Virus record (IMG/VR): IMGVR_UViG_3300022719_000283
Location: 252,067-316,066 of that record
Length of the DNA stretch: 64,000 bases
Reading direction: 5' to 3' (one strand)
Source: a virus
Taxonomy: Duplodnaviria > Heunggongvirae > Uroviricota > Caudoviricetes
The notes beneath the pieces are model-generated. The model was not told where the DNA came from, did not search any database, and was given only the letters and a program-made list of their open reading frames with translations. Shown here one piece after another: positions 1-25,411 of the stretch (position 1 is its first letter; every line of letters begins with the position of its first letter). The position numbers were made by a program, and so were the translations under genes.

Positions 1-2287
1 TCTCTTCCTCTTCTTCACCGGCACGGTAAAGCTGCGTCATCCGTGCTTGCCGGCGCATCTCAGCCTCACGTGTCGTGACGTCCATCCGAGCCGCCTTCGC
101 CATGCCGTCTTCATCCGTCCACTGACGTGGGGGAGAGGCCAACACGTTTCGCATCTGGCTCTGGGTATCGACGTTGATCGATTCGGGCGTGAGGACATTG
201 CGCATGACAGCGCCGGTGAAGGCGGGCACGGCGACCCAGGAAGCCTCGATGAAAGACACGCCACCAGTAGGGTCAAGGGTGTCGTGGCCACACAACTCCG
301 CAGTCTTCCTTCGAACGCCGCGCTCATCGAAGAAAATGTTGCCCTTCTCATATTTAATGCACGGGCACATTTCCGTCTCATCAGCGGCGACATTCCCGCA
401 CTTAGTGCACGCGGTCATCGTTACGGAGCAGCCCATCGAGAGCGTGCTCATCTTCCCGCCCTCGATGTCACGGATCAGGCTCGTGTGACGGCGATCATTC
501 GCGACGAGAATATCAACGTAGACCGAGGGGCCGATGTCCCGAGCCACCGCGTCGATGATGCGACCCTTACTCTGTTCCTCAATCTGGACGTGTTCGACGA
601 ATGAATGTGCTCCGATGAATGTTCGGTAGCTCTTGAGAAGAACGGGACGATCCCATGAGTCGCAGTTGTGGACGGCGACACCGTTGGCGACGTAGCTGTG
701 GTCCTCCTCGACGTCGAAATTGTAGACGGGGCCCGCGTAATCGACCTCTCCGACAGACTGGACGATCTGGAGCTCGTAGCCGTTCAGGAACCGGAACTTG
801 GGCGCCTCCTGGATGTCGCCGCGCTCCTCGATGGCCCGCAAGTACGGAGCCTCGTACACCGTGCCCTGGACGAGGTCGCCGATCCAGGCGCCGCCGCACG
901 CCACGTTCCACGTCACATTCGGAGGCTTGGAGGGGTCGTTGACCACGCGGACATCCCCGTCGATCACGAGACGCGACCGGCCAGGAGACTCAGCCCGGGT
1001 CAGATGACTGGCTACCCCGAGCCGGTTGAGGATGATCTGCATCTGGCTCGCGAGGGACCGGCAGGCGGATGTTCCGGTCACGCGGACATCGCCCGCGTAA
1101 TTTTCCTTGGCCGTGTCCTGGAAACATCCGTCGCCTTCGAACCACCCTCGAACAATCTCCATCTGCACGTCGTGGGGAGCCCGGATGAGCGACGGGCACA
1201 GCGTCTTGGTCGTGGCGCCGTTTCCCCGGACCCACTTGGAAAAAAACGCCGCCGCGTCCCGGTTCGTCCGGGTCGTCACATGGATGCCGTTGTTGGCTGG
1301 GTGCTCCCGAACAACGCACTCGACTCCGAACTCCCGTCGCATCAGGTCGCAGACGGTCCTTGCGAGGGTGGGGGCCTCATCCGCGTGGAAAGCCCAGACG
1401 GCCCCCACGCGCTCGTTCCCGTTCCGTGAATCGAGCTCGTAGTAGCCCTCGGCCGCGAAAAGACCCACCAGGCGCGCCTGCGCGAGCGTGAGATCGACGG
1501 GCTCGACCTCGGACAGCACGGGCATCGTCACGAAGTCCCGGTCGGTCAGGTCCCGGGCCTCGACGAACTCGCCAGACTTCTCCGCTAGGAGCACGTCTTT
1601 CCTGACCTTCTTCTGGTACCAGCACTCCGAGGAGCAGTAGAACTTCCCGATCAGGTGCGTGGCGCAGCGCACGTTGTAGGAGGACTTGCTCCGTGCCGGG
1701 ATCCCGCAGTTGGCACATTTGTTCTCGCGGAAAACGAAGAAAGGATGCTCGGCGGTGGCGTAGATGCGGTCCGTGGTGGCGCGGGGCTTGATCTCGAAGA
1801 TCGCCTCGTCCACGTCCCGACGCATCACGGCGCGGACCCTCCGGGCACGACCCTTGTGGGACAGCACTTCGTCCCCTTCGCGAATCTCCTCGATGGGCCT
1901 GACGGTGCCGTCCGCCATCGTGATCATCGTGCCGGGGACGAAGCAGTTGTTGTTGATCCAGCCCTCGGTCTCCGGCGTAACGCGGTAGTTAGCCCACTTC
2001 CGGTTGACCGTGCGACCATGCTCGTTGACGTTGCCGAGCTTGACGTTCGGGACTTCCTCGGTGTCCACCGAGGCGACGATCGTGGCGTGGCTGAGAAGAT
2101 ACTGCTTCGGATCGAATTCCTGGCCGAGGATTTCCGACGCCTGTGCGACGAGATTAGGAGAGCTACTCGCCGTGCGGTAGGGCCCGTTGGCTAGCACGGA
2201 CCGGTTCTGTCCCACGAAATTTCCCCAATTTTCCGGTGAGAAATTCCGGTGGACAAGAACTCCATGTGCTTTCTTGAGGAAAGCCAT
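1..2287 (-). CDS. Prohead (capsid maturation) protease with intein; runs off the left edge, so it is missing from the ORF track
   Basis: Manual translation from ATG 2287 (MAFLKKAHG...) is open to position 1. Spliced extein reads WINNN|CDSWDRPVLLKSYRTFIGAHSFVEH...SKGRIIDAVAR...TLSMGC...CTKCGN...FIEASWVAVPAF. This fits the N-x-N-(G/C)-D, His and LSMG pattern of phage prohead serine proteases. It lies in the head operon. Confidence 0.8.
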   Translation of the reverse strand, partial: MAFLKKAHGVLVHRNFSPENWGNFVGQNRSVLANGPYRTASSSPNLVAQASEILGQEFDPKQYLLSHATIVASVDTEEVPNVKLGNVNEHGRTVNRKWANYRVTPETEGWINNNCFVPGTMITMADGTVRPIEEIREGDEVLSHKGRARRVRAVMRRDVDEAIFEIKPRATTDRIYATAEHPFFVFRENKCANCGIPARSKSSYNVRCATHLIGKFYCSSECWYQKKVRKDVLLAEKSGEFVEARDLTDRDFVTMPVLSEVEPVDLTLAQARLVGLFAAEGYYELDSRNGNERVGAVWAFHADEAPTLARTVCDLMRREFGVECVVREHPANNGIHVTTRTNRDAAAFFSKWVRGNGATTKTLCPSLIRAPHDVQMEIVRGWFEGDGCFQDTAKENYAGDVRVTGTSACRSLASQMQIILNRLGVASHLTRAESPGRSRLVIDGDVRVVNDPSKPPNVTWNVACGGAWIGDLVQGTVYEAPYLRAIEERGDIQEAPKFRFLNGYELQIVQSVGEVDYAGPVYNFDVEEDHSYVANGVAVHNCDSWDRPVLLKSYRTFIGAHSFVEHVQIEEQSKGRIIDAVARDIGPSVYVDILVANDRRHTSLIRDIEGGKMSTLSMGCSVTMTACTKCGNVAADETEMCPCIKYEKGNIFFDERGVRRKTAELCGHDTLDPTGGVSFIEASWVAVPAFTGAVMRNVLTPESINVDTQSQMRNVLASPPRQWTDEDGMAKAARMDVTTREAEMRRQARMTQLYRAGEEEEE
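665..1945 (-). mobile_element. Intein (427 aa) with LAGLIDADG homing endonuclease, in the prohead protease
   Basis: Starts CFVPGTMITMADG; block B is YATAEHPFF; LAGLIDADG-like motifs are LVGLFAAEG and IVRGWFEGDG; ends VYNFDVEEDHSYVANGVAVHN followed by +1 Cys. Confidence 0.95.
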
Positions 2288-2288
2288 C

Positions 2289-2927
2289 CTAGGCGCCTCC
2301 CTCCAAGTGCTCTTCGACGAGGTCCGAACTTTTGATCATGAACATACACTTGGGGCAGGCGTGTAGCTTTTCGCAGCACCCGCTCTCCATCTTGTATGTG
2401 GCGCGACGAAGGTGCCCTTGGCATCCCTTCATCGGACACTTGTAGTTGCCCGTCTTGTGCTCTTCGGCACTGACTCTGTACTTGCGGTCCCGAGCGTGCC
2501 AATAGAGGCTCTTTTTCACGAAAGCCTGGGCCACCCGAATGGTCATCCGATCTTGATCGTGAGCCACTTTGGCCGTGGGTGAGGGAACTTCGTGGACGAG
2601 CTCGACACGAGGATCTTCGCCTTCAACGACGTTCGACTGGGGGCCGCCTTCAGAAAGCTGAGCCGCACTCCCAGGACCGCCAGGCACGTCCTCGTGCATC
2701 GGAGTCACATAGGGATCGTCTCCAGGATTCACGATTTGGAGATCCTCCACTGGGTGCCGGTAGCTCGTATGGGGCCACTGCACCTGCACCATGCCGATGC
2801 CCGGATAGGAGGCCACGACACGACCCACATCGGTGTTACCACCGTTGACGAGCTGCACGCTCTGGCCGACCTGGAACTCTTGTCCCCGGGCCTGCCAGTT
2901 GCCTGCATCTGCTTGTCGTGTCTGCAT
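2289..2927 (-). CDS. Putative virion/head protein with SH3-like N-terminus and C-terminal Cys cluster
   Basis: 212-aa ORF tightly packed in the head operon; CPMKGC...CPKC; contains KVA and RVAQAF tags. Confidence 0.6.
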   Translation of the reverse strand: MQTRQADAGNWQARGQEFQVGQSVQLVNGGNTDVGRVVASYPGIGMVQVQWPHTSYRHPVEDLQIVNPGDDPYVTPMHEDVPGGPGSAAQLSEGGPQSNVVEGEDPRVELVHEVPSPTAKVAHDQDRMTIRVAQAFVKKSLYWHARDRKYRVSAEEHKTGNYKCPMKGCQGHLRRATYKMESGCCEKLHACPKCMFMIKSSDLVEEHLEGGA

Positions 2928-2938
2928 TCAGCTTCCTC

Positions 2939-3925
2939 TCAAGCGAAAAGTTCGTAGCCGTGATCCAGGGTTTCGAAGATGTCCTGGTAGGCGGACTTGT
3001 CGACGACGGGCTTGCCGTCGTCATCCTCGCCGGGAAGGTCCTCTTCCATGGAAGGATCGGGGTCCTTGGAGTCGGCTTTCTTGCTCGACTTCTTCTCATC
3101 CTGGGTGGTGCGGTGTCCCGGCACCCAGCCCTCGTCCTCTTCCCCCTCTTCCTTCGGACCTTTGGACTCGTTGCCAGGAACGCGAGAATCGGCCTTCTTG
3201 CTCGATTTCTTCTCGTCGTCCTTGTCCCCGTCCTTGTCCCCGTCCTTTTTGGCCTCGGCCTCTTCCTTTTTCTTCTTGGCGTTCTCAATGAACTCGGGAG
3301 GGAGGCCCGCAGTCAGGTTGTAGCCGTGGAATCCGACAACTCCGGCGGCCTTTTCAACGACGACCTCTTCCTCGATCTCAGCTTCTTTTGGCTTCTCCGC
3401 AGGTTTTTCCGCGTGCTTGAGGGTCTTGCGCACGGCGTTTTCGGCTGCTGAGCACACACGGGAGAGCGCTTTGACACTCTCCTTGATGCTTCCTGCACGT
3501 TTCGCGTCTTCCTTCGCCTCTCGGAGAGCCTTGACGGCAGCGGCCACGCGGCGCAGACCATCGATGGTTTCTTCGATGATGTTCACGACATGGGCTTCCA
3601 GCGGATGAGCCATGCGGTCGGAGATGCGGCTTAGAGCCGACCCCATTCGGGGGCGCTCCATCAACTGGCGCACATCACCGCTGAGGGCATGCAAAAAGCC
3701 ATCGAACCCAAGCAGGCAGTCCTTGGCTTCGCGGACGTACTTCTGCTTGTCTTGGAGGGCTTCGCAGGCTTCTTTGAGACGCCCAACACCATCCGCGTGG
3801 TCCTTCCCGGCATCCTTAGCCATCACATCCGCAGCACGGCAAACCTTGGTGATCTCCTCGTCGAGATCACCAAGGCGGTCGATGAAACTACGTGTCTGCA
3901 TGAGCGACAAACCGTGCATAGGCAC
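2939..3925 (-). CDS. Charged coiled-coil protein, possibly scaffold or internal head protein
   Basis: 328-aa ORF; helical N-half and acidic/basic low-complexity C-half; DEKKSSKKADS occurs twice. Confidence 0.55.
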   Translation of the reverse strand: MPMHGLSLMQTRSFIDRLGDLDEEITKVCRAADVMAKDAGKDHADGVGRLKEACEALQDKQKYVREAKDCLLGFDGFLHALSGDVRQLMERPRMGSALSRISDRMAHPLEAHVVNIIEETIDGLRRVAAAVKALREAKEDAKRAGSIKESVKALSRVCSAAENAVRKTLKHAEKPAEKPKEAEIEEEVVVEKAAGVVGFHGYNLTAGLPPEFIENAKKKKEEAEAKKDGDKDGDKDDEKKSSKKADSRVPGNESKGPKEEGEEDEGWVPGHRTTQDEKKSSKKADSKDPDPSMEEDLPGEDDDGKPVVDKSAYQDIFETLDHGYELFA

Positions 3926-3968
3926 CTCCAGAAACCGGCAGCTTCAAAACAAAAGCCGCCGAGGATGG

Positions 3969-4487
3969 TTAGTCCTTGACGACCTTGGGACGGGGAATGT
4001 TGTTCTTCTCGAGCAGCTTGGCCATCTTTTTCACGAGCTCGGAAGCGGCCTTGGCGTTGCTGAACATTCCGTCCTGCTGGACCTGACGAAGCTGGTCGAA
4101 CTCGTCCTGCTTGAAGACGTCCATGTAGGGTTCGTCCTCATTACGCAGGAGGGCACCGGACTGCTCCTCACCGATCTCGGCGGGGTTGAACTCCCAACCC
4201 TGGACCTGCTCCTCGGTCTCGTTCTGCTTGGGGTCCATCTCCGCCTGCTTCTCGATGGCCGAGGCAAGCTTGGCGATCTCGGGGTCCTTGAACTGGCCGT
4301 TATCGGTGCGCTCAATGCCGGCGGTCTTCTCGACCTCCCGGCTCAGAAGATCGCAACGAAGACCAAAGTCCTCGGCGACTTTTGGCGAAACACCGAGAGC
4401 GGTGTGCTCCGTCTCGAAAAGATTGGCGATCCGGTCGAGGTCTCGAGTGACCTGCAACGCACCTTGCTTGCTGAGCTTCTTCGACAT
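3969..4487 (-). CDS. Hypothetical head-associated protein
   Basis: 172-aa ORF with a GAGGTG RBS; first gene after a candidate late promoter; contains KTAG, KLAS and KAAS. Confidence 0.65.
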   Translation of the reverse strand: MSKKLSKQGALQVTRDLDRIANLFETEHTALGVSPKVAEDFGLRCDLLSREVEKTAGIERTDNGQFKDPEIAKLASAIEKQAEMDPKQNETEEQVQGWEFNPAEIGEEQSGALLRNEDEPYMDVFKQDEFDQLRQVQQDGMFSNAKAASELVKKMAKLLEKNNIPRPKVVKD

Positions 4488-4597: not shown

Positions 4598-4623
4598 AAC
4601 CAATCTGCACTTTTTCGGGTTCC

Positions 4624-4826: not shown

Positions 4827-4829
4827 CGG

Positions 4830-7800
4830 TTAGGCTGCCTCAACCACGATAAAAGGTCGGTTCGGATCGTCTGGGTGGAATGACTGAACGTGGGTCAGCC
4901 AGAGCTCAGCAACCTTGTCGGATGCCAAACGAGTGGGCCCTCGCTCCTCGATGGGGATGTTGAAATCGGCCGAGAATCCCTCGTCCTCAGCCTCCTCACG
5001 CCCTTCAGGGGCGTTTTCCCCCTTGGCGTATTGCTCGGCCTTGGCCTTATCCTTGAAAGACTTGGGAGTGCCTTTGCGATTCTTCGCACGCCAATTGCCC
5101 TGGTCCGTCTCCCAGACATCACCGGGACCGTGATTGTCATCCTGGACGGCTTCCTCCGCCTGCCCGATCACCCGGTCAAGTTTCTTGACCCGTTCGTCGA
5201 ACTTGGCCCGCGCACGCTCGGGCAACTTTTCACGTTGCGCTTCCATCTTCTTGCGCATGGCCCTGGCCTTGTCGAGACGCTTCCGGCGCTCTTGAGCCTT
5301 GGGAGTGTCCTCCTTGGGCTTCTTCTCTTTGGCACCGGGCCACGGCGAACCTCCACGGGCATGTGCTTCGGCCTCTTCCCGAGTCTCGAATCGTTTGCGC
5401 CACCCTCGATCGTCTTGTGACTCCCACTCCCCTTCACCTTCGGGGCCTCCCGGTGAACGCCAAAATTTGGCTCCCTTCTCCGAGACTTGGTACCAGTCAC
5501 GCTCCGGATCACTATCCACGTATTGCCCGGATTCTGCGGGCTTCGGCGCATCTGCACGTGCCTTTTCACGATCCTCCTTGGTGCGAGGCTCAGGAGTGTT
5601 GGCATCGGGATGGGGGAGCGTCTCCGTATCCATTACGCTTTTGTCCCCCGTCTCGACGAAGTTCTTGAAGACCGCGGTAGCAGGAGAGATGACCCACTTG
5701 TTGAACTTGTCCTTGAGAGTATCGAGCAGGCTTTGGGCCGATTCCTGAAGTCCTTTGCCTCCCTCGCCTAGAACATCCTGGACGAGCTGCTCATCTTGGG
5801 GATCGGGGCGCTCTCCTCGAGCTCGAGCCTCATCGATCCGTACCAGAGCGTCGAAGGCAGCTTGACGACCCGGTCCTCCGTTCGTCTTGGCTTCTTCGAT
5901 GATCTGTGCACGAACATCTGGATCGTCCCAATCCGTAGCTCCCGCTGCTTCCATCACGTCCCTGGTCGCACGATCTCCCCACACATCGTTCATCCAGTCG
6001 TCGATCAAAAAGCTCTTGATGAGCTGTTTGTACTCACTGCCACCAGGGCCAGAGTTTTGGAGGAGGCCCTTGAGACGCCGGAAGGGGTGGTTCGGATCGT
6101 CTCCCACGATGAATTCAGCAAGCTCATCGTCGTTCATATTGTTGAGGGCATTGCGCATGACTTGCCGACTTTCATCCGCAAACATGTCTCCCACGGGCTT
6201 GAACATGGTCGCAATGTTGCCCCCTTCAGCTAGGCGGCGAATCAGAGCGGCAGGTCCTTTGCTCACCTGGGGTTGGCCGGGAAGAGAGTCTCCTGTATCG
6301 GCCACGTGAGCCGTATTGATGCCCGTCAGAATGGCGCTAAGCTCTTGAGCTCGGTCGGTTTCGGGATCCAGGCCGCGTAGCTCCTCAGAAATCTTATTGG
6401 CTGCATCGCGGCGCAAGATGCCATTAAGACGAGAGAAAGTGTTGTAACCATCCAAGGCACGGTTGCCGTAGGCCACCTCATCCATCTCGGTTTGACCAAC
6501 GGGTTTGGCTCCCGCGATCATCGGGTTCGCCACTACGTTGCGTGTATACGCAATCTTCGCCAGACGTTCACCCAGTTCATCCGGAGCGTTCTGACCTTGA
6601 GTGCTGAACCCGGACTTCGCCATCGCGTTGGCAACCGAGACGGCCTCATCGGAAGTGGGATCCTGATCGGTGAGTTTCTGGAGCGTGTTCTCGAACTCCA
6701 GCGAAAACTGCTCCATCTCGTCATCGTTGAACTTGTCGAGCTTGGCTTCGATCTCAGCCTTCACATGGCGTGGGAGTCTCGACCCTTTGCCCATGAGAGA
6801 CTCCATCGTCTCGACGGTGCGCTCTATGGCTTCACGCCTGCGTTTTTCCTGCTCGCGTTTCTTCTCTTGCTTTTGCTGGCGCTTCTCTTGCTTTTGCTGG
6901 CGCTTCGCCCCGGAGGGGTCACTGCGCTCAGCTTTGAGCTCTTCCACGCGCTGTTGCTTGTAATTGAGGTCCTCCTTTTTCTCCTTGAGTTCCTCTTCGG
7001 TTTCGTCGAGTTTCTTTCGCTCTTCCTTGAGTTGTGCTTCGGGGTCTTCGGCCGCTTGCTCCTGGGGCTCTTCCTCAAGTTTCTTCTCGAGGAACTCCAC
7101 AGCCTTGGCGCTTTCACGCCCTGATTTGCGCAAGGACTTGTACTCGGCCTTCTTCTCCTTGAGCGCCTCTTTGACGTCGTCGAAATCCCCATCTGCTTCA
7201 CGAATAGCCTTGCGGGCCTCGGCCACCATGCTTTTGAATCGTTCCACTTGCGGATGATCCTCACCAAGCTGCTCAAGGTATCCTTTCGCGTCCTTGATGA
7301 CCTTCTGCTGGGACTTGATCTCCTTCTTCAGATCGTCAGACCGGTCCTCCAGCTTGTCCATTTCCTTCCCCAGCGGTTTCATCCGCTGGACGGTCTCTCG
7401 CATCTTCTGTTTCTCTTGATCGATACGGGCCTGGATCTTCTCCTTGCGGGCTTCCGGGTCCATAGGAGGCTTACGGGACTTCCGGCGCAGCTTGTCGATA
7501 TTCTTTTTGTGTTCCTTGATCTGCTTTTGCAGCTCTTCGACAGAGAGCTCGAGCTCATCTACCTCATCACGTACCTCTTGCAGGTCTTCATCGATGTCTT
7601 CGCGTGTACGCTTCCCTTCCTCTTCGCCCTTCCCTTTCTCTTTCTTGCCTTCCTCTTCTTTGGCACCAGGGAACTGACGACGGTACTCGGCACGCACCTT
7701 CTCTGCCGCAGGAGGATCCTGCTTCTTGAGCCCCTCAAACCCAACCTCAGCACTGGGCGGGGCGTTTTTGGCCTTGCTGGGCCATCGCTTATCCTTGACC

Positions 7801-10800
7801 CATTGTTCGAAAGTGGGAGCCTCACGCTGCTGCCGTTGGCCCGTCGGGGCTTCCACCTCAGCAAGGCGGTGAATCAGACGCACTGATGAAGGGCGCGTCG
7901 GGGCTGCAACCCAACGCCACGCGACTCGATGGCCGACCTTGTTCCACTTCATGGAGAGGTCTCTGTCACCTTTATCTCCGCCTCCGAGGACCTCTTCCTC
8001 ATCCTCTTCGTCCAGTGTGCGGTTGTCACGGAGGTCGTAGCGCGGCGGTTTCTTCTTCGGCTCCTTGCGAAGCATCTTCTGGACCTGCTCCTCCTCCTTT
8101 TCCGCGTCCGACTTCGTGCCGGTCTTATCCTGGTGCTTGCACATGGAACACCGGGTGTTGTCGTTTCGATACTCCTCTGAATCGATCGGGATTCCCCACT
8201 TGAGGCCATAATGATGAGCGAGTCCGTTCATGCACCGACTACAGGACTGGCCAGCCACCATGATGGCATCCCCAACATCCCACTCCTCGCTGCGAACCAT
8301 GGCGGTAACGAGATCCCCGGGAAACGTAGAAGCCCCTCGGAAGATCTCCGAGCTCGTGCCGTCGTCATTCAGTTGAAGAATGCTGTGCACGAGCTCGTTC
8401 GGGAATTGGCTGTGCTGGGTGGTGGCGCCTTCAGGGGCCCCCAAGGGTCCTTCGTCAAAGTCCGGCTCTCCTAGACTGTTGCCCTCACTATCCTCGTACC
8501 AGAGCACCGTGAACAGCTCGGGGTCGAACTTGAGCCCGGGAATGTGGGGACGCGGCTTTTCATGATCTCGCGCAAGGCGATAGAGATTCGGAGCTTCTCG
8601 CAGCCACCACTTCCGGTCTCGTGCAACCAAGACCGGCGCATTCAGGGCGTTGGCCAGGATCCGTCGTTCTGTGAGAGTCCCTTGGGACGTGACTTGCCGG
8701 AGTCCGTAAGGGGGCAGCGCGTCCTTCTCACGGACCGGGCGGTCGAAAGGCTCGAGCTCTCCCGCGTCGTTGTAACGGCCTCTGATACCCACGTCGTAGC
8801 CGCCGTCTGCACGGGTCTCGAGCACGGCACCGCCGCTCTCCCGCACGTGCCGTTCCATCTCGTTCCAGGTAGCCTCCGAATCAGGAGACTGTATGGCTAC
8901 TGCTTCCGCGACGCTACCGGGCCACATCTGGTGAGACAGTTCGTACCACGGGGTGTCATCGAGCATGTCCTTGAGGGCGTCAGGAGCGATGACATAAAGT
9001 GCCCCGGTGTCGGTGACTGCTTCAGCTCCCTTCTTCGTATGGCTCTCACTGATGGTGCCGTCCTTCATGTATTCGTCCTCCAGCCCGGGGACGAGATACT
9101 GACTCTTGAGCGTGCTGGCCTCATGACCCACGCGCTCGGCCGTCGCCTCAAGGGCCTTCTTGAACTCGTCCTTCAGCTTCTTCTCGCGCTCCTTGGGATC
9201 GTCGGGCAGTTTGCCTTTCCGCACCTTCCGAAGCTGCGTCTTCATCTCCGTATTGGCGTGGAGCCCTCGGATGTCTTTGGCTGAGATCCCAAAGGGTTTC
9301 AGATACGCATTGACTTCCGAAGCCGACACGCTCAACACGCATTCGTTGGGTTTTTTGTCTGCGCACGCTTTCTTGAGCGCGCTGACAATCCGCGAATTCG
9401 TGATCTTCTTCTTTTGATCGACGCCGGACTTGCCCACATACGAGAGGGTCGCACTTCCATTGTGAAATTTGACGTGTTTGACACGCCAGGTGGTGACTCC
9501 GAAGTGCCCCTCTTTGGCACTCCCGTCGTTGCCCACACGCTCGAAGGTTTCGTCCATGAGACCCACCGCAAGGGCCACGTCACGAGTCTTCTCGTCTTTG
9601 GACTGGACATCCTTGCGGACTTTCGTCTGTAGCTTCTGCATCGATTTGCGTAGCTTCTCGACGCGTTCCGCCTTCTTACGATTTCGATCTGCCACCTGGC
9701 GATCGCTGTACTCGTAGACGGTCATCTCATCACCGTCTTTGGTCTTGACCTTCTTCTTCGACTTGTAGCGGGCCATCACCTGGCGTTTCAAGCTCTTTTT
9801 GGCGCTGGCGCTTTCCATCTCATCCGGCACCGTCACATACTGGTCCTTGAGCTCCTTCTTGGACGGGTACTGAAAAACGCGCACCTTGAGTTTGGGCTTT
9901 CGCCCATCCGGAAGAAGATTGCGGACGCCCTTGAACTTGGAATGCTCCGGGATCAAGTAGAGCAGGATCTCTCCCTTGGAAGGGTTGACGATCATCTGAG
10001 AGGTGGTGCGCATCTTGTCCGTGAACCGCACGGGATTGAGCGAACCGTCCGTTTTCTCGATGCTCTGCGTCAACACAGGCATCAAGTCCTCGGCTCGTTG
10101 AACCTTCTCAAGCTGCTTCTTAGCCTCCCACTGACGCACCACTGAAGAGATGTAGTCGTCACCTTTCGTGTAGCCCGCTCCAGGATAATAGATGCCGTGG
10201 TTGGTCCGGGTATAAACGTCATCTGACGACAGACTCACCACCTTCGGCGTGTGGATTTTGGAGCTCTCGAGCGCGTAAACCTTAGCGCCATCAGAGATAA
10301 GGGTGTGGCCCTTCAGGCCGCGTTTGAAAGTAGGTGGCTTGTAGGTGATCAGTGACCGTAGAACCTCGGGCAGGGTCTTCTTGGTGAGCGCCTTGACGAT
10401 CTTGATGCCATCCGGAGAGCGTTCAGGATCGCTATCTCCCTCCGACAATCCCTCACGCTCATCCTGAAGCACCATGAGAGAAGAGTTTACGATGCCGATT
10501 CCGTGCTCATTGATCCCTTCACAGAAGCCCGTGATGCGGTCGAACAGGATACATATCTCGGTTCCGTCAACCTCTAGGTGATAGACGCAAAGCGACGGGT
10601 TGTACATCCGATCACGCACTTTGCCTAGCACAACGTCGCCATCGCACTTTTTGGAAAAGACAATACACGCTTGCTTCTGCTGGGCCTCTGCTTTCCAGAT
10701 CTTGTAGAGACCCATCGTTCGGTTCTTCTTGCGGCCCTTGGGAACCGGCTCGATCTCCACCGATGGGACACCACGATCATCGTCGAAGAACCGCACGATC

Positions 10801-10892: not shown

Positions 10893-11527
10893 TCGGACAG
10901 CCTCCGAATCTCAGCGAGGTAACGAGCAGCCACACGATGGTGCAGGTTTCTTCGGAGCCACCGATCGCTGATCTTACGAATGGATGGCCCAAACTTCACC
11001 TTGTGAACTTTTGGCAGCCCCCATACCTCCATCTCCTCGAACCGCCAGGATCCCTGCGGCACTTCGTCATTCCACTTGCTGTCCATGCCAGGCATGTAGG
11101 CCAAAGTGACGTGCGGCTTGAACTCTGGAAATTTGTCCCCGACGGCAATGCCTGCATCCGTGAGCTCCTGCTTGATACGCTGCTTGAACCCGGCCAAGTC
11201 CTTATCGAACTCGACCGTCACGTGAGGGACACGGCGATCCTGGTCGTGCTGATCGAAGTACTCGAGCTTGCCCAGTCGGGCTTCGCACAAGGGCCACCAG
11301 CGGCGACAGCAATCCTTCAAGATCTCAACGAGCTGATCTTGTTGCTTCTTGCCCTTGAAATCTCCGATGTACAGAAAGGTGACATGGGAGGGAGAGGTGT
11401 CTTCGTTGCCCAGGCTGGGGAACTTCTTGGCGAGATCCTTCGGAAGAGGAATGAATAAGCCAACCGATTCCCCGTTGCCGGCTTTGGTGCCTGTTGCCTT
11501 GGCGACACGCTGCAACGAAAAGGACAT
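10889..11527 (-). CDS. 2H phosphoesterase (2'-5' RNA ligase / Acb1-like fold)
   Basis: Two HxT motifs (SHVTFLY and PHVTLAY) with typical spacing; RVA tags at both termini. Confidence 0.85.
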   Translation of the reverse strand: MSFSLQRVAKATGTKAGNGESVGLFIPLPKDLAKKFPSLGNEDTSPSHVTFLYIGDFKGKKQQDQLVEILKDCCRRWWPLCEARLGKLEYFDQHDQDRRVPHVTVEFDKDLAGFKQRIKQELTDAGIAVGDKFPEFKPHVTLAYMPGMDSKWNDEVPQGSWRFEEMEVWGLPKVHKVKFGPSIRKISDRWLRRNLHHRVAARYLAEIRRLSE

Positions 11528-12001: not shown

Positions 12002-12027
12002 TGGAAGCCCCTGCTAGGGGCGCTCCG

Positions 12028-12042
12028 ATAGGCCGAAAACCG
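12028..12042 (-). promoter_or_regulatory. Candidate late promoter motif (CGGTTTTCGGCCTAT)
   Basis: Best match to the consensus; 27 nt upstream of the GTG at 12001. Confidence 0.55.
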
Positions 12043-12044
12043 TC

Positions 12045-14695: not shown

Positions 14696-16606
14696 TTAGT
14701 ACCTCCGTTTGCGCGGAATTTGACGTTTCGGGTCCGAGCCTCCGAGTAGGCGTTTGCGACGGGCTGCACGGCGCGCCTGAGCACTCACCCCGGGTTGTCC
14801 GGGGATGGCAGATTGCTTCGAACGGGCGATGTGCTTCATCTGGCCGAGATGCGTGCTGGCCAAATAGACGGAGCGCGCCAGGGCGTCCGCCAAGTCATCA
14901 TGTTTCCCTTCGGTTTGAGGAGCCTCGACTTCGACGATGTACTGACTCTTGTAGGTAGCTTGCAGCGAAAGAAGCTGCTCGATGTACTCGTAGTGCTCGG
15001 GGGGCTGCTCGTCTCGAGCGAGATACTTCCTCTTTTCAGTCTCATCAATGTCGTAGAGCACGAGCCGGGGCTCCCCACCGATGCGGTCCCACATCATGGC
15101 CTTGAGGTTGGCCCAGATCTCGGACTTTTCCCGAGGCGTGAACAACTTGGCCTCGAACATGGAAAGGCCCTTCTTGTGGAGCGCCTGTTCCAAAGGGATA
15201 CCGTAGTGTTGATCGAGCAACCCTCGGTGGAAGTGAAACCGTCGCGAAAGAAGGTGAATCCAGGCGGCGATCTCTTCGAAATCAAGCCGATCCTTGTTGA
15301 CGAACTCTCCTTCACCGGCTTTGATCTGTCCGATGTAGTCGAGCACGATACGCTGTTGTTCGTCGATATGGGTGATGGCAATGGCGCTCGCGTCGTTGAC
15401 GAGACCAAGGTCGAACCCTGCAAAATAGGGTACGCGCGGGATACCTCGGCTCTTCGGGCGCGCCTTCTTGTCGACGCAGTCGAACAGATCCTTAGAATCG
15501 TCCAGCCATCCCAGAGTACGATCCGAAAACTCGGCTCCGAACTCCTGAAAGAACATGCGCTTGTCGAACGCGTAATGCTCCTTGAAGTAGGAAGCCGGAA
15601 TCGTGGGGTTCACTTCCCACGTGGGAGCTTGGACGCACAGCATGCTACGCGCCTGAGCACCTCCAGCCATTCCTTGCATAAACTTCTGGTAGAACAGCCC
15701 TTGTTTGCCCAACGGGCTTGAGATCATGATGATGCGGCCATCAGACTCCGTGTTGTCGATCCCATGAATGGGTTCGCCAAACTCATTTTTCGGAGTGAAG
15801 GCGGCATTCGAAGGCGACACAGCACCGTAGACCTCTTCGGCCGAGCTCCCTCCTTGCGCGAGAAAGTGGGCAACCTCATCGAGAATGATGACGATGTTCC
15901 CCTGACCGCGAAGGCTCTTGGCGTTACAGGCCGCGAAGAAAACCTTGATAGACGCACGCGCCTGGGGGTTTTCTGTGTAGCTGCCGAACTCTTCGATGTC
16001 GTGCGGTGTCTGGAACCGCGCGTAGGACATCGTATTGTTGGCCGTGTACCTCTTAAAGAAGTTGCATTTGGTAAAGTGGTGCGAAACCTCTTCATAGAGG
16101 AGACCAGCTTGTTCCTTACCAGTTGCTACCGAAACGAGACGAATCGGATTCGAAGCAGCAACCCCGTAGTACTTCTGGGGATTGCCCTTGTTGATGAGCT
16201 TGTAGGTTTCATAGGCGGCAATACAGGCAGAAACTAGGGTCTTTCCAGAGCGGCGACCGATCGGAAGAACCAGGTTACGACGTTCTTCACCCGGTATGAC
16301 CTCCTGGATATTGCAACGTCCTTGGTCGTACAGCCACCGCAAGTATCCCGCTTCCGTGAACTCCAAGGAGTTCTCGCGCTTCCAGTCCGTGATCTCGAAA
16401 GTGTTGTCGGGATCGTCGTCGAGGGCAATCCCATAGTGGGCTTTCAAAATGACGCGCTGGACAGGGAACAGCGGCATCCCGAGTCCCCAGTCGGACTCGA
16501 TGAACGTAACAATGTCGACCGCTTCTCTCGCCTTCGTAGACTGACTACGTCCGGCGTTCAGTGCGATGCGAGCGAGATTGGCAGCAGCCCCTTTCTTCCT
16601 GGCCAC
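14696..16606 (-). CDS. terL: Terminase large subunit
   Basis: Walker A IGRRSGKT; Walker B IIILDEVAHF; coupling motif MISSP; nuclease motifs AGFDLGLVND and HDDLADA. Confidence 0.95.
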   Translation of the reverse strand: MARKKGAAANLARIALNAGRSQSTKAREAVDIVTFIESDWGLGMPLFPVQRVILKAHYGIALDDDPDNTFEITDWKRENSLEFTEAGYLRWLYDQGRCNIQEVIPGEERRNLVLPIGRRSGKTLVSACIAAYETYKLINKGNPQKYYGVAASNPIRLVSVATGKEQAGLLYEEVSHHFTKCNFFKRYTANNTMSYARFQTPHDIEEFGSYTENPQARASIKVFFAACNAKSLRGQGNIVIILDEVAHFLAQGGSSAEEVYGAVSPSNAAFTPKNEFGEPIHGIDNTESDGRIIMISSPLGKQGLFYQKFMQGMAGGAQARSMLCVQAPTWEVNPTIPASYFKEHYAFDKRMFFQEFGAEFSDRTLGWLDDSKDLFDCVDKKARPKSRGIPRVPYFAGFDLGLVNDASAIAITHIDEQQRIVLDYIGQIKAGEGEFVNKDRLDFEEIAAWIHLLSRRFHFHRGLLDQHYGIPLEQALHKKGLSMFEAKLFTPREKSEIWANLKAMMWDRIGGEPRLVLYDIDETEKRKYLARDEQPPEHYEYIEQLLSLQATYKSQYIVEVEAPQTEGKHDDLADALARSVYLASTHLGQMKHIARSKQSAIPGQPGVSAQARRAARRKRLLGGSDPKRQIPRKRRY

Positions 16607-17961: not shown

Positions 17962-18507
17962 CTATTCCTCCTTCAAAACGGCCCATTCTTCCGCCGCCAC
18001 TCGAGCAGACTCCTTCGCTCGGAGAACCTGACGAAGCAGGTACTGGTTGGTCTCGTGCTCATTGGCAGCAGCCATGAGGAAATCGTCCATCCCCAAGCTC
18101 AGTTCCCCCATCGCCTTGAGCTGGTCATACGTGCGCTTGCAAAGATCTTGGAAATCCTGCTCGGACAAAAGACCCCGCTTGTGGAGGCAGTCCGTGGTAC
18201 TCCAGCGCCGAATGAAAGATTCGAACTTCGCGCCCACATCGAGCCCGTTCACCGAATCAAGGCCGTACGTGCCGGCCATCTTTTCGGCTAGCGTGTCGAT
18301 CTGCTCCGTGACGCTCTCGTAGAGTCGTTGGAAAAGAAGATGGTTACCGTAGTAGGAGGGTCCCTTGGTCTGCCAGTGCGACTCCTGGTAACTCCAGTAC
18401 TGCGCGCGCAAGCATGCCAGAAGCCATTGGAGCATCTCGACGGCTGTTTCCTTCTGAGGGCTCTCTTCGGGATTGCCCGGACAAGCGATGAAAGACCAGC
18501 GGCGCAT
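17962..18507 (-). CDS. dps: Dps/ferritin-like protein
   Basis: ESHWQTKGPSYYGNHLLFQRLYESVTEQIDTLAEKM matches the Dps signature with ferroxidase H, D and E; C-terminal RVAA tag. Confidence 0.8.
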   Translation of the reverse strand: MRRWSFIACPGNPEESPQKETAVEMLQWLLACLRAQYWSYQESHWQTKGPSYYGNHLLFQRLYESVTEQIDTLAEKMAGTYGLDSVNGLDVGAKFESFIRRWSTTDCLHKRGLLSEQDFQDLCKRTYDQLKAMGELSLGMDDFLMAAANEHETNQYLLRQVLRAKESARVAAEEWAVLKEE

Positions 18508-20717: not shown

Positions 20718-21658
20718 CAGTGTCCTCCCTCGATGGTCTCAAGCTTGTCGTAGTACTTTGGATCTTCCGTCAGATGGTCCATGGCGATCTCTTCCGCTTT
20801 GGCGGAGTCATCGGTATGCTCCATCTCGACCTTGATGCCCTTCTTGAGCTGTTCAGGATCGAAATCGGAAGGGTTGCGCTTGTCGGCAAGCCCGCCTGGG
20901 AGTTGGTCCTTGTGTTGAGCCGCCCATTTTTGGGCGATACGGGAAACTGCGAGCTCAAGCCGAATGTCCCGGGCAGTTCTCACCGAAGCCTGCTTCTGCA
21001 TGCTCACAGGAACGGTAGTTTCAACCTCGGTTTCATCGCCCCACGAGTCCCAATCATCAGGGTCTACTCGCTCAAGATCCTCCTTCGGGTTCTTCTGGTC
21101 GAACTCTTCACGCATTTCCTGCTCAGCCCATTGCTGGGGATCGTCGCGGATCTGTTGGACATCTCCCATGAGCTGCTTGATTTGGTCCTTGTCACTGTCC
21201 TCTTCCTGGCGTGACAAGGCTGACCAATGAGGAGCGTTGATCTCGTCGTACAGCGTGTCGGCCAGGGCACTGAGAGCTTCCACGCAGTTCATGTACTGCT
21301 TACGCATGTCCGCGATCTTCTGGATGTACCCGCGACCACCCATCGCACCATCCGGAGAAACTCGAGCTGACTTGATCTTGGCGAAGCGGTTGTAGCCACT
21401 TAGGGTGTGCCCCAGAGCAGCCAAGGTTGCACGAAGGATCTTCGCCAACGGCTTTTGATTTCTGGGGCTGTAGTTGAAGTCGTTCGGAATTTCACGTTGT
21501 GACGGGGGGACGTTGTTGTAGGCCCACGACCCCGTGTCGTCTCCACGGTCTTTCTTGAAAACAACCTCTCCGGCCGTCTTCAGCCGTCCCTGCCGGGCCA
21601 TGTAGAGCGCCGCGACGCGCTTTGGATCTGGGGTGGTCACAGTGAAACGTCCTGCCAA
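20717..21658 (-). CDS. Hypothetical virion protein with a C-terminal DUF5661-like domain (true start may be GTG 21640)
   Basis: C-terminus LPGGLADK...KGIKVEMEHTDD...EIAMDHLTEDPKYY (family recalled, not searched); tags RVAALY, KTAG, KQAS and RIAQKW. Confidence 0.65.
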   Translation of the reverse strand: MAGRFTVTTPDPKRVAALYMARQGRLKTAGEVVFKKDRGDDTGSWAYNNVPPSQREIPNDFNYSPRNQKPLAKILRATLAALGHTLSGYNRFAKIKSARVSPDGAMGGRGYIQKIADMRKQYMNCVEALSALADTLYDEINAPHWSALSRQEEDSDKDQIKQLMGDVQQIRDDPQQWAEQEMREEFDQKNPKEDLERVDPDDWDSWGDETEVETTVPVSMQKQASVRTARDIRLELAVSRIAQKWAAQHKDQLPGGLADKRNPSDFDPEQLKKGIKVEMEHTDDSAKAEEIAMDHLTEDPKYYDKLETIEGGH

Positions 21659-21668
21659 AGGTGGGCCT

Positions 21669-21683
21669 ATAAAGCGAAAACCA
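21669..21683 (-). promoter_or_regulatory. Candidate late promoter motif (TGGTTTTCGCTTTAT)
   Basis: Variant of the recurring 15-mer, 29 nt upstream of GTG 21640. Confidence 0.45.
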
Positions 21684-21723
21684 CCGATCCGGCCCGTATC
21701 GGGGAAGCGCTCAGCGCGCTGGC

Positions 21724-22293
21724 CTATACCCGAAGAGGCTCGCCCGTATCGTCGAACAATCGCGAGAGGACGTATTCACCGTTTTCGGTCGTTTCGAAGC
21801 TCCAGAGGTCCTTGGTGGCCTTGTGGACGAGCTCGTTATCGTCGTTGCCCCATCGCAGGAAACCCGTGAGATCTCCAAGGTTTGCGACTCGACGCGCGAA
21901 GTTCGAGGCAACTTTCGTGTTGCTTGAAGCACGGCGCAGATATTCGGGGTCCACCTGGAGAAACTGACCGTTGTCGAATTTCACGAACACCAGGCCCTGA
22001 AGACTCGTCTGGTCGCCCTCTGCGGTGCGCACCATGACCACAGTTCCTTCGGCCCCATCTGCGGGAGGGTCCGCCCATTGCAGTACACTGCCAATGTTCG
22101 TCACGAAGGAAACGCGGGTTCCTGCATCAACGGGAAGCCCCAAAGCATTGGCGGCTCGACCCTGGTCGGTGAGAGACCGAAGTCCTGCGTTCGCGAGAGT
22201 CTGCTCCCGATCCTGCAAGTACAGGTCGAGAGAAGATGCTTGTTTAGCCCCGAGAGTGAGGCCGTCGTAGAGTTCGTCATCGTCATGTGCCAT
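21724..22293 (-). CDS. Hypothetical virion protein with an SH3-like domain
   Basis: 189 aa with RBS; GTRVSF...GTVVMV...VFVKFDNG; KQAS, KVAS and RRVA tags. Confidence 0.6.
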   Translation of the reverse strand: MAHDDDELYDGLTLGAKQASSLDLYLQDREQTLANAGLRSLTDQGRAANALGLPVDAGTRVSFVTNIGSVLQWADPPADGAEGTVVMVRTAEGDQTSLQGLVFVKFDNGQFLQVDPEYLRRASSNTKVASNFARRVANLGDLTGFLRWGNDDNELVHKATKDLWSFETTENGEYVLSRLFDDTGEPLRV

Positions 22294-22303
22294 CGTAGAT
22301 CTC

Positions 22304-23911: not shown

Positions 23912-23920
23912 GTTCTACTC

Positions 23921-24364: not shown

Positions 24365-24368
24365 GCGG

Positions 24369-24674
24369 TCACCAAATCCAGTTCGTCTCCAGTCCGCGTT
24401 TTGCGAACCACCGTTCAAGTGTCTTCAGGGACTTTTGATCCGAAGACCAAACGTAGAACCCCTCGAAGTCCTCCTTCACACCCAGATCGGGGATCGGCTC
24501 GACGCTTCCCAGCTTGAGTTTGCCGTCGCGGAAGGAACGAAGAACCGAAGGGTAGTCTTTGGCCAAGGGATTGAAGACCCTGAACCGATACTCGGGCTTC
24601 GCCTTCTTGAGCAGCCATTGACGAGCCACTGACTTGCTCATCACGACTCGGCGTGCAGAAGGTTTCGTAGACAT
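24369..24674 (-). CDS. Hypothetical protein
   Basis: ATG 24674 with an AGGAG RBS; SVARQWL tag. Confidence 0.6.
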   Translation of the reverse strand: MSTKPSARRVVMSKSVARQWLLKKAKPEYRFRVFNPLAKDYPSVLRSFRDGKLKLGSVEPIPDLGVKEDFEGFYVWSSDQKSLKTLERWFAKRGLETNWIW

Positions 24675-24700
24675 AACACTCCTAGATGGTGGGTTGCGAT

Positions 24701-25411
24701 TTACCCCTCGTTGCACTCACTCAGGTCGATGGTGACCGCAGGAACCGACACCATGCCGTCGGGGTCGGCGATCTCTTCGGCCACGGGCTTGATCATTCCG
24801 CTCACGTAGTGAACGGCACCCAAGGCAGCCGTCCCCTTCTTGCAATTCGCATCTTTGAGCTTCGTGGCGTAGTGGAGGACCGCAGCGACGGTGATGCCAG
24901 CAATCGCCTCCACGAGCACCGCAGCGTCTTCGTTGCCTTTGAGCGAGCTGCTCTCGGGGCCCTCGACCGCAGCTTCCTCGGCTTCCTCGGCTTCCTCGGC
25001 TTCCTCGGCTTCCTCTTCTCCCTCGACCGGGGCCACATACCCGGCAACACGGCTTTCGTGCACGTAGGGCACCATGGCGCTTTCACCCCCCTCACGAAAC
25101 ATCAGGCATTCCGAAACGTCGATATCGACGGCAGGAACAACGATCTTATCCGCCAGCCGTCCTGCCAGAATCTGGTTGGCAGCATCGAACCCGGAAATCA
25201 GGGATTCGGCCGCAACGCACCCTTCGAAGTGTTTGGCTTCGAGGGCCTCGTTCCGGCCGATCATGGCAGCCGTCTCACCGCCCGCCAGGGCCACCTGGAT
25301 CAGAGGAAAGTAGTCTTCGGGGTTCGCAGTACCTTTGCGGGGCTTGCACCCGCCCAGAGCCAGAGGAAGAAGTAGAGCCGCAAAAACCGTGAATTTGCCG
25401 ATGTGGGACAT
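24701..25411 (-). CDS. Predicted lipoprotein
   Basis: Signal peptide with lipobox LGG|C; internal 9-bp repeat GCTTCCTCG (about 5 copies, 24972-25016) encoding EEA repeats. Confidence 0.7.
   Translation of the reverse strand: MSHIGKFTVFAALLLPLALGGCKPRKGTANPEDYFPLIQVALAGGETAAMIGRNEALEAKHFEGCVAAESLISGFDAANQILAGRLADKIVVPAVDIDVSECLMFREGGESAMVPYVHESRVAGYVAPVEGEEEAEEAEEAEEAEEAAVEGPESSSLKGNEDAAVLVEAIAGITVAAVLHYATKLKDANCKKGTAALGAVHYVSGMIKPVAEEIADPDGMVSVPAVTIDLSECNEG

What the first reader, a model, noticed from the sequence alone, without database searches (positions are those of the whole stretch)
1..25411. Recurring [K/R]-x-A / RVAxx[Y/W/F] tag on virion-block proteins: candidate capsid-cargo addressing and processing system
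Seen in sequence: many proteins in the two virion blocks (1-25 kb and 53-64 kb) carry a short motif at their termini or between domains. Examples are RVAARYL (2H phosphoesterase C-terminus), RVAARWL (157 aa), RVAALY/KTAG/KQAS (313 aa), RVAAEEW (Dps), KTARRVAERYL and RVARRFL (431 aa), MRRTA and RVAHRVARRFL (C39 peptidase), and KVAS/RVAS in the last genes. The motif seems scarce in the replication block by eye. Established: T4 and phiKZ prohead proteases cut internal head proteins at short motifs, and T4 uses a capsid-targeting sequence. Inference: this phage tags unrelated enzymes (Topo IB, Ntn hydrolase, 2H phosphoesterase, Dps, C39 peptidase, a sigma-like protein) for loading into the head, and the protease at 1-2287 trims them at [K/R]xA.
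Basis: partly seen in the sequence, partly recalled or inferred. Interest (0 to 1): 0.85.

Follow-up and report, generated by a model that had tools for sequence, protein, structure and literature searches.

The report
Portable head-address tag in huge phage
A 619-kb phage puts the same seven-residue helical peptide (RVAxR[Y/W/F]L) on either end of about ten unrelated proteins encoded around its head-assembly genes, most likely to load them into the capsid; a second motif (K-x-A-S/G), packed into its scaffold protein, is probably where its head protease cuts.

Summary
The RVAxx[YWF][LM] peptide is real. The strict form hits six genes in the 618,736-bp genome, all inside this window, and five hits lie within 20 residues of a protein end (shuffles: 0.26 total, 0.05 terminal). 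Synonymous codons vary, so the peptide is what is conserved. Orthologs down to 42% identity keep it, and two whole related genomes show the same enrichment. It is portable: N-terminal, C-terminal or at module junctions of giant post-portal proteins. One domain is tagged after the portal here but untagged elsewhere in a relative. Structure models show tag helices on flexible tethers.

The broad [K/R]-x-A idea fails genome-wide (z=0.3). The narrower K-x-A-[S/G] is the top pattern of 8000 in the clade's scaffold proteins (15 vs 1.1) and is conserved in linkers of several head proteins. It lies between tag and core only in some families.

My reading is a prohead-docking address tag plus a new-looking protease site. 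Packaging, cleavage and the tag's receptor are all unshown. This scan has found T4-type capsid-targeting leaders before on other phage DNA. This one differs in lineage (phage-G-type capsid), sequence, position independence and candidate cut site.

The parts
11948..11968 (-). N-terminal tag RVAARWL (residues 12-18) of the 157-aa protein, the first gene after the portal
   Evidence: The first post-portal gene starts with an NFTK...tag peptide in many relatives, whatever domain follows.
10916..10936 (-). C-terminal tag RVAARYL (residues 198-204 of 212) of the 2H phosphoesterase (gene 10889-11527)
   Evidence: In G004 the same junction tag is the N-terminus of the downstream 2044-aa protein.
7908..7928 (-). 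Internal tag RVAWRWV (residue 989) of the 2020-aa topoisomerase-IB protein (gene 4830-10892), at a module boundary
   Evidence: It ends the conserved N-terminal half, and the variable, gapped segment 1001-1280 follows. It is conserved as RVAFRWL in G004.
4896..4931 (-). C-terminal RLAS site followed by tag KVAELWL in the 2020-aa protein
   Evidence: G004 has RFAG followed by VTDAWL. It shares an RGPxxL prefix with the C-tag of the 431-aa protein.
21569..21619 (-). 313-aa protein: N-tag RVAALYM (residues 14-20), short linker, then KTAG (27-30) before the invariant EVxFxKD core start
   Evidence: Alignment A5. The model shows a tag helix at 12-22 and KTAG in a stretch with pLDDT below 50.
20921..20995 (-). 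313-aa protein: KQAS (residues 222-225) in the acidic linker, then second tag RIAQKWA (240-246), then the DUF5661 domain
   Evidence: In short orthologs this tag is the C-terminus (SRVALRFM, RLASRWL).
58017..58037 (-). N-terminal tag RVAERYL of the 431-aa protein (gene 56775-58070)
   Evidence: VAxR[YF][LIV] is kept in most of 26 orthologs at 42-68% identity.
56793..56813 (-). C-terminal tag RVARRFL of the 431-aa protein
   Evidence: L419, R420, V421 and A422 are (nearly) invariant inside an otherwise variable tail. The model shows a lone helix at 417-430 after about 85 low-confidence residues.
60587..60619 (-). Tandem C-terminal tag RVAHRVARRFL of the C39-like peptidase (gene 60575-61453)
17983..18003 (-). 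Weak C-terminal tag RVAAEEW of the Dps/ferritin-like protein (gene 17962-18507)
   Evidence: It is kept in some orthologs (L004, L024) and absent in the closest ones (L001, L002), so it is doubtful.
2517..2537 (-). Internal RVAQAFV in the 212-aa protein just upstream of the protease; conserved in G001 and G004, about 75 residues before a zinc-ribbon C-terminus
   Evidence: It may be a junction tag or simply part of the fold.
3969..4487 (-). 172-aa head-module protein with three K.A[SG] sites (KTAG 4317-4328, KLAS 4260-4271, KAAS 4041-4052)
   Evidence: Two of the three sites are conserved in orthologs.
2939..3925 (-). 328-aa head-module protein with three K.AG sites
21724..22293 (-). 189-aa protein with KQAS (22234-22245) and KVAS (21904-21915), both conserved as [KR].A[SGN] in orthologs
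63725..63790 (-). Last (partial) gene: KVAS, 10 residues, then tag-like RLAKKWI
   Evidence: Same site-then-tag order as in the 313-aa family.
2..2287 (-). Prohead maturation protease (N-terminal 762 of 955 aa) interrupted by a Hint/LAGLIDADG intein; presumed reader of K-x-A-S/G
   Evidence: It is homologous to the Tunturi_5 gp331 and phage G gp19 proteases.
12045..13922 (-). Portal protein
   Evidence: phrog_16240, E=2e-32; 29 related loci.
14696..16606 (-). Terminase large subunit

Best explanation
RVAxx[YWF][LM] (core RVAxR[Y/W/F]L) is a short, basic, amphipathic-helix address tag. It is attached by a flexible tether to either end, or to module junctions, of unrelated proteins of a clade of phage-G-type huge phages. 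It most likely docks them to one common, highly conserved partner inside the assembling prohead, either the capsid inner surface or the scaffold core. The proteins would then be enclosed and later released into the host with the DNA. A separate motif, K-x-A-[S/G], is the likely cleavage site of the intein-bearing prohead protease. It is packed into the acidic scaffold protein, which would be chopped up and expelled, and it lies in flexible linkers of several head proteins. Where it lies between tag and core (313-aa family, C-terminus of the 2020-aa protein, last gene), the tag would be clipped off after loading. Elsewhere the tag probably stays on. Shown: the motifs, their statistics, conservation, portability and context. 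Inferred: docking, packaging, cleavage and delivery.
For: Tag enrichment and terminal bias. Peptide-level conservation with free synonymous change. Both tags retained in 431-aa orthologs at 42-68% identity, as a conserved island in a variable tail. Pre-specified replication in whole genomes G001 and G004. Portability: the first post-portal gene carries the tag whatever domain follows; the 157-aa domain is untagged elsewhere in G001; the 2H/2020 junction tag belongs to the upstream gene in G000 and to the downstream gene in G004. Internal tags fall at module boundaries of giant post-portal proteins. Tag helices sit on low-confidence tethers. Context: the genes lie between portal and prohead protease, with scaffold and a phage-G-type capsid protein next. 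DUF5661 of the 313-aa protein recurs in a scaffold/protease-position protein of Vibrio phage VPs20. K.AS is the top pattern of 8000 in the scaffolds (15 vs 1.1, p=1e-12; 10 vs 0.96 without G000 and G004) and is also top in the scaffold-position protein of cultured phage Tunturi_5. Tunturi_5's annotated ejection protein has 7 K.A[SG] vs 1.0 expected. The sites are conserved in indel-rich linkers and modelled as flexible. The layout N-tag, KTAG, core, KxAS, C-tag holds across 15 orthologs.
Against: No virion proteomics or any experiment exists for this clade, and no cultured relative carries the tag. The receptor is unidentified. Several tagged genes lie far from the head module (genome 57, 78, 520 and 600 kb). 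Four clear tag-bearers (157-aa, 2H, 431-aa, C39) have no K-x-A-S/G beside the tag, so 'tag then clip' is not general. The 2020-aa protein has very few such sites. In an unbiased pattern scan of termini the tag class ranks 3rd of about 180,000 in G000 but is not Bonferroni-significant, and it ranks only 602nd in G001. Some relaxed hits are plainly parts of folds (RNR, capsid protein). Phage G's own scaffold-position proteins gp20 and gp21 have no K.A[SG].
Confidence: 0.45

Rival explanations
1. The tag is a docking peptide for a different hub that has nothing to do with the capsid, for example a modifying enzyme that recognises a shared leader, a chaperone, the phage's own sliding clamp, or RNA polymerase.
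For: Shared terminal peptides on unrelated proteins are also how clamp clients and RiPP-like substrates are marked. An earlier scan case (e1-127136) turned out to be an enzyme recognition tag and not a capsid signal. The window encodes a beta clamp and clamp loader. Several tagged genes lie outside the head module.
Against: No tag occurs on any replication-block protein, where clamp clients would be expected (0 of 54 termini). The sequence is unlike QL[SD]LF-type clamp motifs (established knowledge). The densest cluster, and the position-locked tag of the first post-portal gene, point to head assembly. No candidate modifying enzyme was found to co-occur, though this was not searched systematically.
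Confidence: 0.2
2. [quoted passage not shown] It would mark the junctions of an ancestral post-portal polyprotein and short terminal propeptides.
For: R-V-A fits basic-x-Ala. Relatives often have RVAS or RLAS forms that match [KR]-x-A-S. The tags sit exactly at module junctions and at places where genes have split.
Against: The hydrophobic pattern at positions 2, 3, 6 and 7 and the models indicate a helix, whereas protease substrates bind extended (established knowledge). In G000 the residue after RVA is A, E, R or W and never S or G, while the scaffold sites are S or G in 8 of 12 K.A occurrences. Tandem copies (C39, 142-aa) and tags 3-8 residues from a C-terminus make little sense as cut sites. 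In the 313-aa family a separate K-x-A-G/S lies beside each tag.
Confidence: 0.15
3. The tags bind each other, or the tag-like helix in the scaffold (CVRIASALM), as a multivalent helix-helix glue. This would condense cargo into an inner body, and no capsid receptor would be involved.
For: Some proteins carry two tags (431-aa at both ends; tandem in C39 and the 142-aa protein), which suits cross-linking. The scaffolds of tag-bearing phages have a conserved tag-like helix that Tunturi_5's scaffold lacks.
Against: There is no direct evidence. The scaffold correlation rests on a few related genomes. This is a sub-variant of prohead targeting and not a true alternative.
Confidence: 0.1
4. Chance or compositional artefact of an Arg/Ala/Val-rich proteome.
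For: 58% GC favours R, A and V codons, and RVA alone is only mildly enriched (z=2.0).
Against:: large excess over composition-matched shuffles, terminal bias, deep ortholog conservation, and replication in other genomes.
Confidence: 0.02

Closest known systems
Phage T4 capsid targeting sequence (CTS) on IPI/IPII/IPIII and Alt, removed by prohead protease gp21 (reviewed in PMC9958956 and PMC9026906)
   Same: A short peptide shared by unrelated proteins that are to be enclosed in the head and delivered to the host, combined with a prohead protease that trims head proteins and destroys the scaffold core.
   Different: The T4 CTS is strictly N-terminal and ends in the L/I-x-E cut site. This tag works at the N-terminus, the C-terminus or internally, has an unrelated sequence, and often has no cut site beside it. 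The phage has a phage-G/HK97-type capsid protein of 292 aa without a propeptide, not a gp23-type one. The candidate cut site has Ala at P1, not Glu.
Giant-phage propeptides cut by phiKZ gp175 / SPN3US gp245 at A-x-E (PMC10052503, PMC5694885)
   Same: Giant phages that load many internal or ejection proteins and process them with one prohead protease, with several motif copies inside the regions that are removed.
   Different: Those propeptides are long (20-254 aa), N-terminal and have no shared address consensus. The motif is A-x-E, not K-x-A-S/G.
Encapsulin cargo-loading peptides
   Same: A short, portable terminal peptide on unrelated enzymes (including ferritin-like proteins) that docks on the interior of an HK97-fold shell. 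It can be N- or C-terminal and can be repeated (established knowledge).
   Different: Different consensus. Encapsulins have no portal, DNA, scaffold or protease. Binding of this tag to the capsid protein is not shown.
C-terminal coat-binding helix of scaffolding proteins (P22 gp8; 80alpha gp46 and its mimic SaPI1 CpmB)
   Same: A basic amphipathic terminal helix used to hold a protein on the inner face of the procapsid. CpmB shows that the helix can be copied onto another protein (established knowledge).
   Different: Here the helix is on about ten non-scaffold proteins. This phage's own scaffold C-terminus (L..[LM]W..AP.V..VF) resembles the tag only loosely.
Herpesvirus assemblin maturation and release sites (V/L-x-A|S)
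   Same: A prohead/procapsid serine-protease lineage that cuts scaffold proteins between Ala and Ser (established knowledge). K-x-A-S has the same P1 and P1' residues.
   Different: Lys at P3 instead of a hydrophobic residue. The fold and catalytic residues of this protease were not established here: there is no PDB sequence match, only a PHROG match.

Membership tests
T4-type capsid targeting sequence (CTS) | Located at the extreme N-terminus (first 10-20 residues) | tested here: not met
   Tags occur at N-termini (157-aa, 313-aa, 431-aa), at C-termini (2H, 431-aa, C39, 2020-aa) and internally (2020-aa residue 989, 313-aa residue 240).
T4-type capsid targeting sequence (CTS) | Ends in the prohead protease site L/I-x-E and is removed | tested here: not met
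   No L-x-E follows the tags. The candidate site is K-x-A-S/G and is adjacent to the tag only in some families. Removal itself cannot be tested here.
T4-type capsid targeting sequence (CTS) | T4-type head genes (gp23-like capsid protein with propeptide, gp22 core) | tested here: not met
   The capsid protein matches phage G gp27 (6WKK, E=4e-62) over its full length, with no propeptide.
T4-type capsid targeting sequence (CTS) | Tagged proteins are found inside the virion | not testable with these tools
   No cultured member and no proteome. Only the gene context applies.
Encapsulin cargo-loading peptide | Short portable terminal peptide on unrelated cargo enzymes | tested here: met
Encapsulin cargo-loading peptide | Binds a pocket on the interior of the HK97-fold shell protein | not testable with these tools
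   No binding assay was available and no usable computational answer was obtained.
Encapsulin cargo-loading peptide | The shell is a DNA-free nanocompartment without portal, scaffold or protease | tested here: not met
   Portal, terminase, scaffold and protease are all present.
Prohead protease cleavage motif (Ala|Ser type, as in assemblin) | Motif over-represented in the scaffold protein, the protease's main substrate | tested here: met
   K.AS ranks first of 8000 patterns, 15 vs 1.1 expected. G000 scaffold alone has 8 vs 0.68.
Prohead protease cleavage motif (Ala|Ser type, as in assemblin) | Sites lie in accessible linkers and are conserved where the surrounding sequence is not | tested here: met
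Prohead protease cleavage motif (Ala|Ser type, as in assemblin) | Peptide bond actually cut by the protease | not testable with these tools
   Needs mass spectrometry or in vitro digestion.
Bacterial sliding-clamp binding motif | QL[SD]LF-like consensus on polymerases and repair enzymes | tested here: not met
   The consensus is different, and no tag occurs on any replication-block protein.

The most novel reading that the evidence does not exclude
A large environmental clade of huge phages (its capsid protein has more than 2000 close relatives) uses a position-independent seven-residue helical address tag to load a swappable set of enzymes into the head: topoisomerase IB, 2H phosphoesterase, a papain-like peptidase, a ferritin-like protein and others. 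It would work together with a prohead protease of previously undescribed K-x-A|S/G specificity. If so, the injected proteome of uncultured huge phages could be read from sequence, and the tag could be used to load foreign proteins into phage-G-type capsids.
Probability: 0.4. Interest if true: 0.75.

Novelty: new variant of a known kind. Interest (0 to 1): 0.62.

Why it matters
Which proteins huge phages inject alongside their DNA is largely unknown, because almost none of these phages are cultured. A recognisable address tag would let that cargo be predicted from metagenomes. Here it predicts a topoisomerase IB, a 2H phosphoesterase (a possible cyclic-nucleotide or RNA-end enzyme), a peptidase and a ferritin-like protein. 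The tag works at either end of a protein, which is unlike the N-terminal-only T4 signal, and it would be a compact handle for loading foreign proteins into very large capsids. The K-x-A-S/G motif gives a concrete protease specificity that can be tested now in two cultured relatives, Tunturi_5 and phage G.

Tried and rejected
1. DNA-level explanation (a promoter or RNA element at gene boundaries): rejected, because synonymous positions vary freely.
2. Generic [KR].A[SGA] as a genome-wide signal: not enriched (z=0.3).
3. Unbiased 4-of-7 reduced-alphabet pattern scan of termini: swamped by Ser/Pro/basic bias and by spurious wrong-frame ORFs from my crude gene caller. The 5-of-7 scan with filtering gave rank 3 in G000 and rank 602 in G001, so de novo discovery alone would not have established the tag.
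4. Complex prediction of capsid protein + scaffold + the 52-residue tail of the 431-aa protein: no verdict (score 0.00, partner fold uncertain, controls not run). It counts neither for nor against binding. Portal and protease were not tried as partners because the cap is one job.
5. Fold search of the 431-aa model against the PDB: nothing significant, only sigma/TFIIB-like helical repeats at E of about 0.2-2.
6. Sequence search of the protease extein against the PDB: nothing.
7. Homologs of the 431-aa protein in cultured phages: none. Dps-like and 313-aa proteins: only an unannotated metagenomic huge phage and short domain matches.
8. The internal RVARVYM of the capsid protein as a 'self' copy of the tag: rejected, because it aligns to VVTKIVM in phage G gp27 and is part of the fold.
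9. Tat signal (RRxFLK) and MinD-type membrane helix: considered from memory and rejected. The spacing is wrong, many copies are C-terminal, and the R-V-A core is too specific.
10. C39 peptidase as a double-glycine leader-processing enzyme for the tags: only one tag is followed by GG.
11. Literature searches and the phage G multi-omics paper describe neither motif.

Full report
WHAT THE WINDOW IS. The window is bases 252,067-316,066 of a single 618,736-bp contig of a huge phage (58% GC), with nearly all genes on the minus strand. Reading along the minus strand, the first block encodes terminase large subunit (14696-16606), portal (12045-13922), a 157-aa protein, a 2H phosphoesterase (10889-11527), a 2020-aa protein with a type IB topoisomerase core (4830-10892), three small proteins, and a prohead protease split by a Hint/LAGLIDADG intein (2-2287, continuing beyond the window). 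Just outside the window the genome continues with a very acidic 512-aa protein in the scaffold position, a 219-aa protein, and a 292-aa major capsid protein that matches phage G gp27 (PDB 6WKK) at E=4e-62 over its full length, with no N-terminal propeptide. So this is a phage-G-type head module, not a T4-type one.

THE TAG IS REAL. The strict pattern [RK]VA.[RK][YWF][LMIV] hits six plausible genes in the whole genome. All six are in this window and five lie within 20 residues of a protein end, while composition-preserving shuffles give 0.26 hits in total and 0.05 terminal. The copies use different synonymous codons for R, V, A and L, so the conserved object is the peptide and not a DNA or RNA element at gene boundaries. 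Within the window, 7 of 58 termini in the two virion blocks carry the relaxed form, against 0 of 54 in the replication block (p=0.008). The pattern was chosen after looking at the data, so the stronger arguments are independent ones. First, 26 orthologs of the 431-aa protein at 42-68% identity mostly keep both the N-terminal VAxR[YF][LIV] and the C-terminal RGPxxLRVAxx[WF][LMV], and L-R-V-A is a nearly invariant island in an otherwise variable tail. Second, with the pattern fixed in advance, two whole related genomes show the same excess: G001 (497 kb) has 8 terminal hits vs 1.75 expected, and G004 (230 kb) has 14 hits in total vs 2.4. An unbiased enumeration of terminal patterns is weaker. 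The tag class ranks 3rd of about 180,000 in G000 but does not pass Bonferroni correction, and it ranks 602nd in G001.

THE TAG IS PORTABLE. In relatives the first gene after the portal begins with an NFTK...RVAxRWL-like peptide, whatever lies behind it. Here that is the 157-aa domain. In L002, L023 and L027 it is the 2H phosphoesterase directly, often inside fusion proteins of 700-2800 aa. The 157-aa domain also exists elsewhere in G001 without a tag. The tag at the 2H/2020 junction is the C-terminus of the upstream protein in G000 and the N-terminus of the downstream protein in G004. Internal copies lie at module boundaries. Residue 989 of the 2020-aa protein ends the conserved N-terminal half, right before a variable, gapped stretch, and the giant post-portal proteins of G001 and G004 carry several internal copies. 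Some relaxed hits are clearly parts of folds and not tags (ribonucleotide reductase, capsid protein).

SHAPE. V2, A3, the aromatic residue at 6 and L7 fall on one face of a helix, flanked by basic residues. In the model of the 431-aa protein the folded core ends near residue 330, and the C-terminal tag is a lone helix (417-430) after about 85 low-confidence residues. In the 313-aa model the two tags are short helices (12-22 and 229-248) next to stretches with pLDDT below 50. This looks like a docking peptide on a tether.

THE CUT SITE. But K.A[SG] occurs 8 times in the scaffold against 0.68 expected, a count never reached in 5000 shuffles, and the sites are conserved in position in G001 and G004. 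Among all 8000 a.bc patterns, K.AS is the single most enriched in the clade's four scaffolds (15 vs 1.1, p=1e-12). It stays first without G000 and G004 (10 vs 0.96), and it is first in the scaffold-position protein of cultured Tunturiibacter phage Tunturi_5. Tunturi_5's annotated ejection protein has 7 vs 1.0 expected, and phage G's protease has 3 vs 0.32. In G000 the proteins with the greatest excess after the scaffold are largely head-module ones (172-, 328-, 189- and 313-aa). Their sites persist in orthologs even within indel-rich linkers. The known giant-phage proteases cut after Glu in L/I/A-x-E (PMC10052503). Ala-Ser is the bond cut by herpesvirus assemblin (my own knowledge). So this would be a different specificity for a phage prohead protease.

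HOW THE TWO MOTIFS RELATE. The 313-aa family shows the full layout in 15 orthologs: N-tag, short linker, invariant K[TVML]AG before EVxFxKD, a core of about 155 residues, an acidic linker, K.A[SR], C-tag, and sometimes a DUF5661 domain. Both sites are modelled as flexible. The same site-then-tag order occurs at the C-terminus of the 2020-aa protein (RLAS then KVAELWL; G004 has RFAG) and in the last partial gene. The 157-aa, 2H, 431-aa and C39 proteins have no such site beside their tags. So 'load, then clip' is at best family-specific, and many tags probably stay on.

INTERPRETATION. I read the tag as a prohead address peptide that docks cargo to a common, highly conserved partner. The capsid protein is over 90% identical across more than 120 clusters, and the tag is almost unchanged between G000 and the distant G001. 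I read K-x-A-S/G as the protease site. Context supports a location inside the head: the portal-to-protease position, and DUF5661 recurring in a scaffold/protease-position protein of Vibrio phage VPs20. Nothing shows packaging, cleavage or the identity of the receptor. The rivals are a non-capsid hub or a modifying enzyme (an earlier scan case, e1-127136, ended that way), the tag being the cut site itself, and tag-to-tag or tag-to-scaffold condensation. The scan has repeatedly found T4-type N-terminal capsid-targeting leaders on other phage DNA. This case is a variant of that kind in a different lineage, with a different and position-independent tag and a different candidate cut site. I found no description of either motif in the papers available.

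Noticed in passing
L024/L025 about 10001-13435; L027/L028 about 7286-10750: In some relatives the portal ORF is about 1150 aa, and the match to this portal is split by about 1.5 kb that resembles the intein part of this phage's protease (24-25% identity). These phages probably carry an intein in the portal gene, whereas G000 carries one in the protease.
   Followed up: partly
G004:C1 about 84067 (+ strand, 215-aa ORF): A paralogous copy of the scaffold's conserved central block (LCxRIAxALxP...ALELMDLDD) fused to a CxxC zinc ribbon. This recalls earlier notes on this genome about zinc-hairpin proteins that carry copies of capsid-protein segments.
   Followed up: no
L015:1223-1900, L016:1260-1934, L015-L017 Dps-like fusion ORFs: In one sub-clade the C-terminus of the 313-aa ortholog (KTASLxxAYWEGV) and the N-terminus of the Dps-like fusion protein (MTKxxAYWxGV) share an AYWEGV-type peptide instead of RVAxxYL. 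This may be a co-varying tag variant that could help identify the receptor.
   Followed up: no
portal N-termini, window 13850-13922 and loci L001-L027: Portal orthologs share a conserved N-terminal [KN]A[IV][AS]GS[AG]S (here HKTAVSGPGA), followed by a glycine-rich low-complexity stretch. This may be another processed end.
   Followed up: no
genome 248162-249040 (outside the window): The phage-G-type capsid protein has 2072 hits at E<=1e-20, and more than 120 clusters at 90% identity or above, on contigs up to 520 kb. This is a very large and very uniform environmental clade of huge phages.
   Followed up: partly
window 4830-10892: A type IB topoisomerase catalytic core (residues 402-597, E=5e-25) sits in the giant post-portal protein and is its most conserved part across all related loci (55-83% identity). 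I found no paper on a virion-associated topoisomerase IB in phages.
   Followed up: partly
genome 251486-254353; window 2-2287: The protease N-terminus carries a conserved [YI]RTAS (residues 38-42), also present in G001 and G004. Tunturi_5 and phage G proteases have K[VI]AS near their C-termini. These are possible self-cleavage sites.
   Followed up: no
genome 197865-199733: The tagged 622-aa protein is related (30% identity over 160 aa) to the Tunturi_5 gp336 'tail protein' encoded next to that phage's capsid gene.
   Followed up: no
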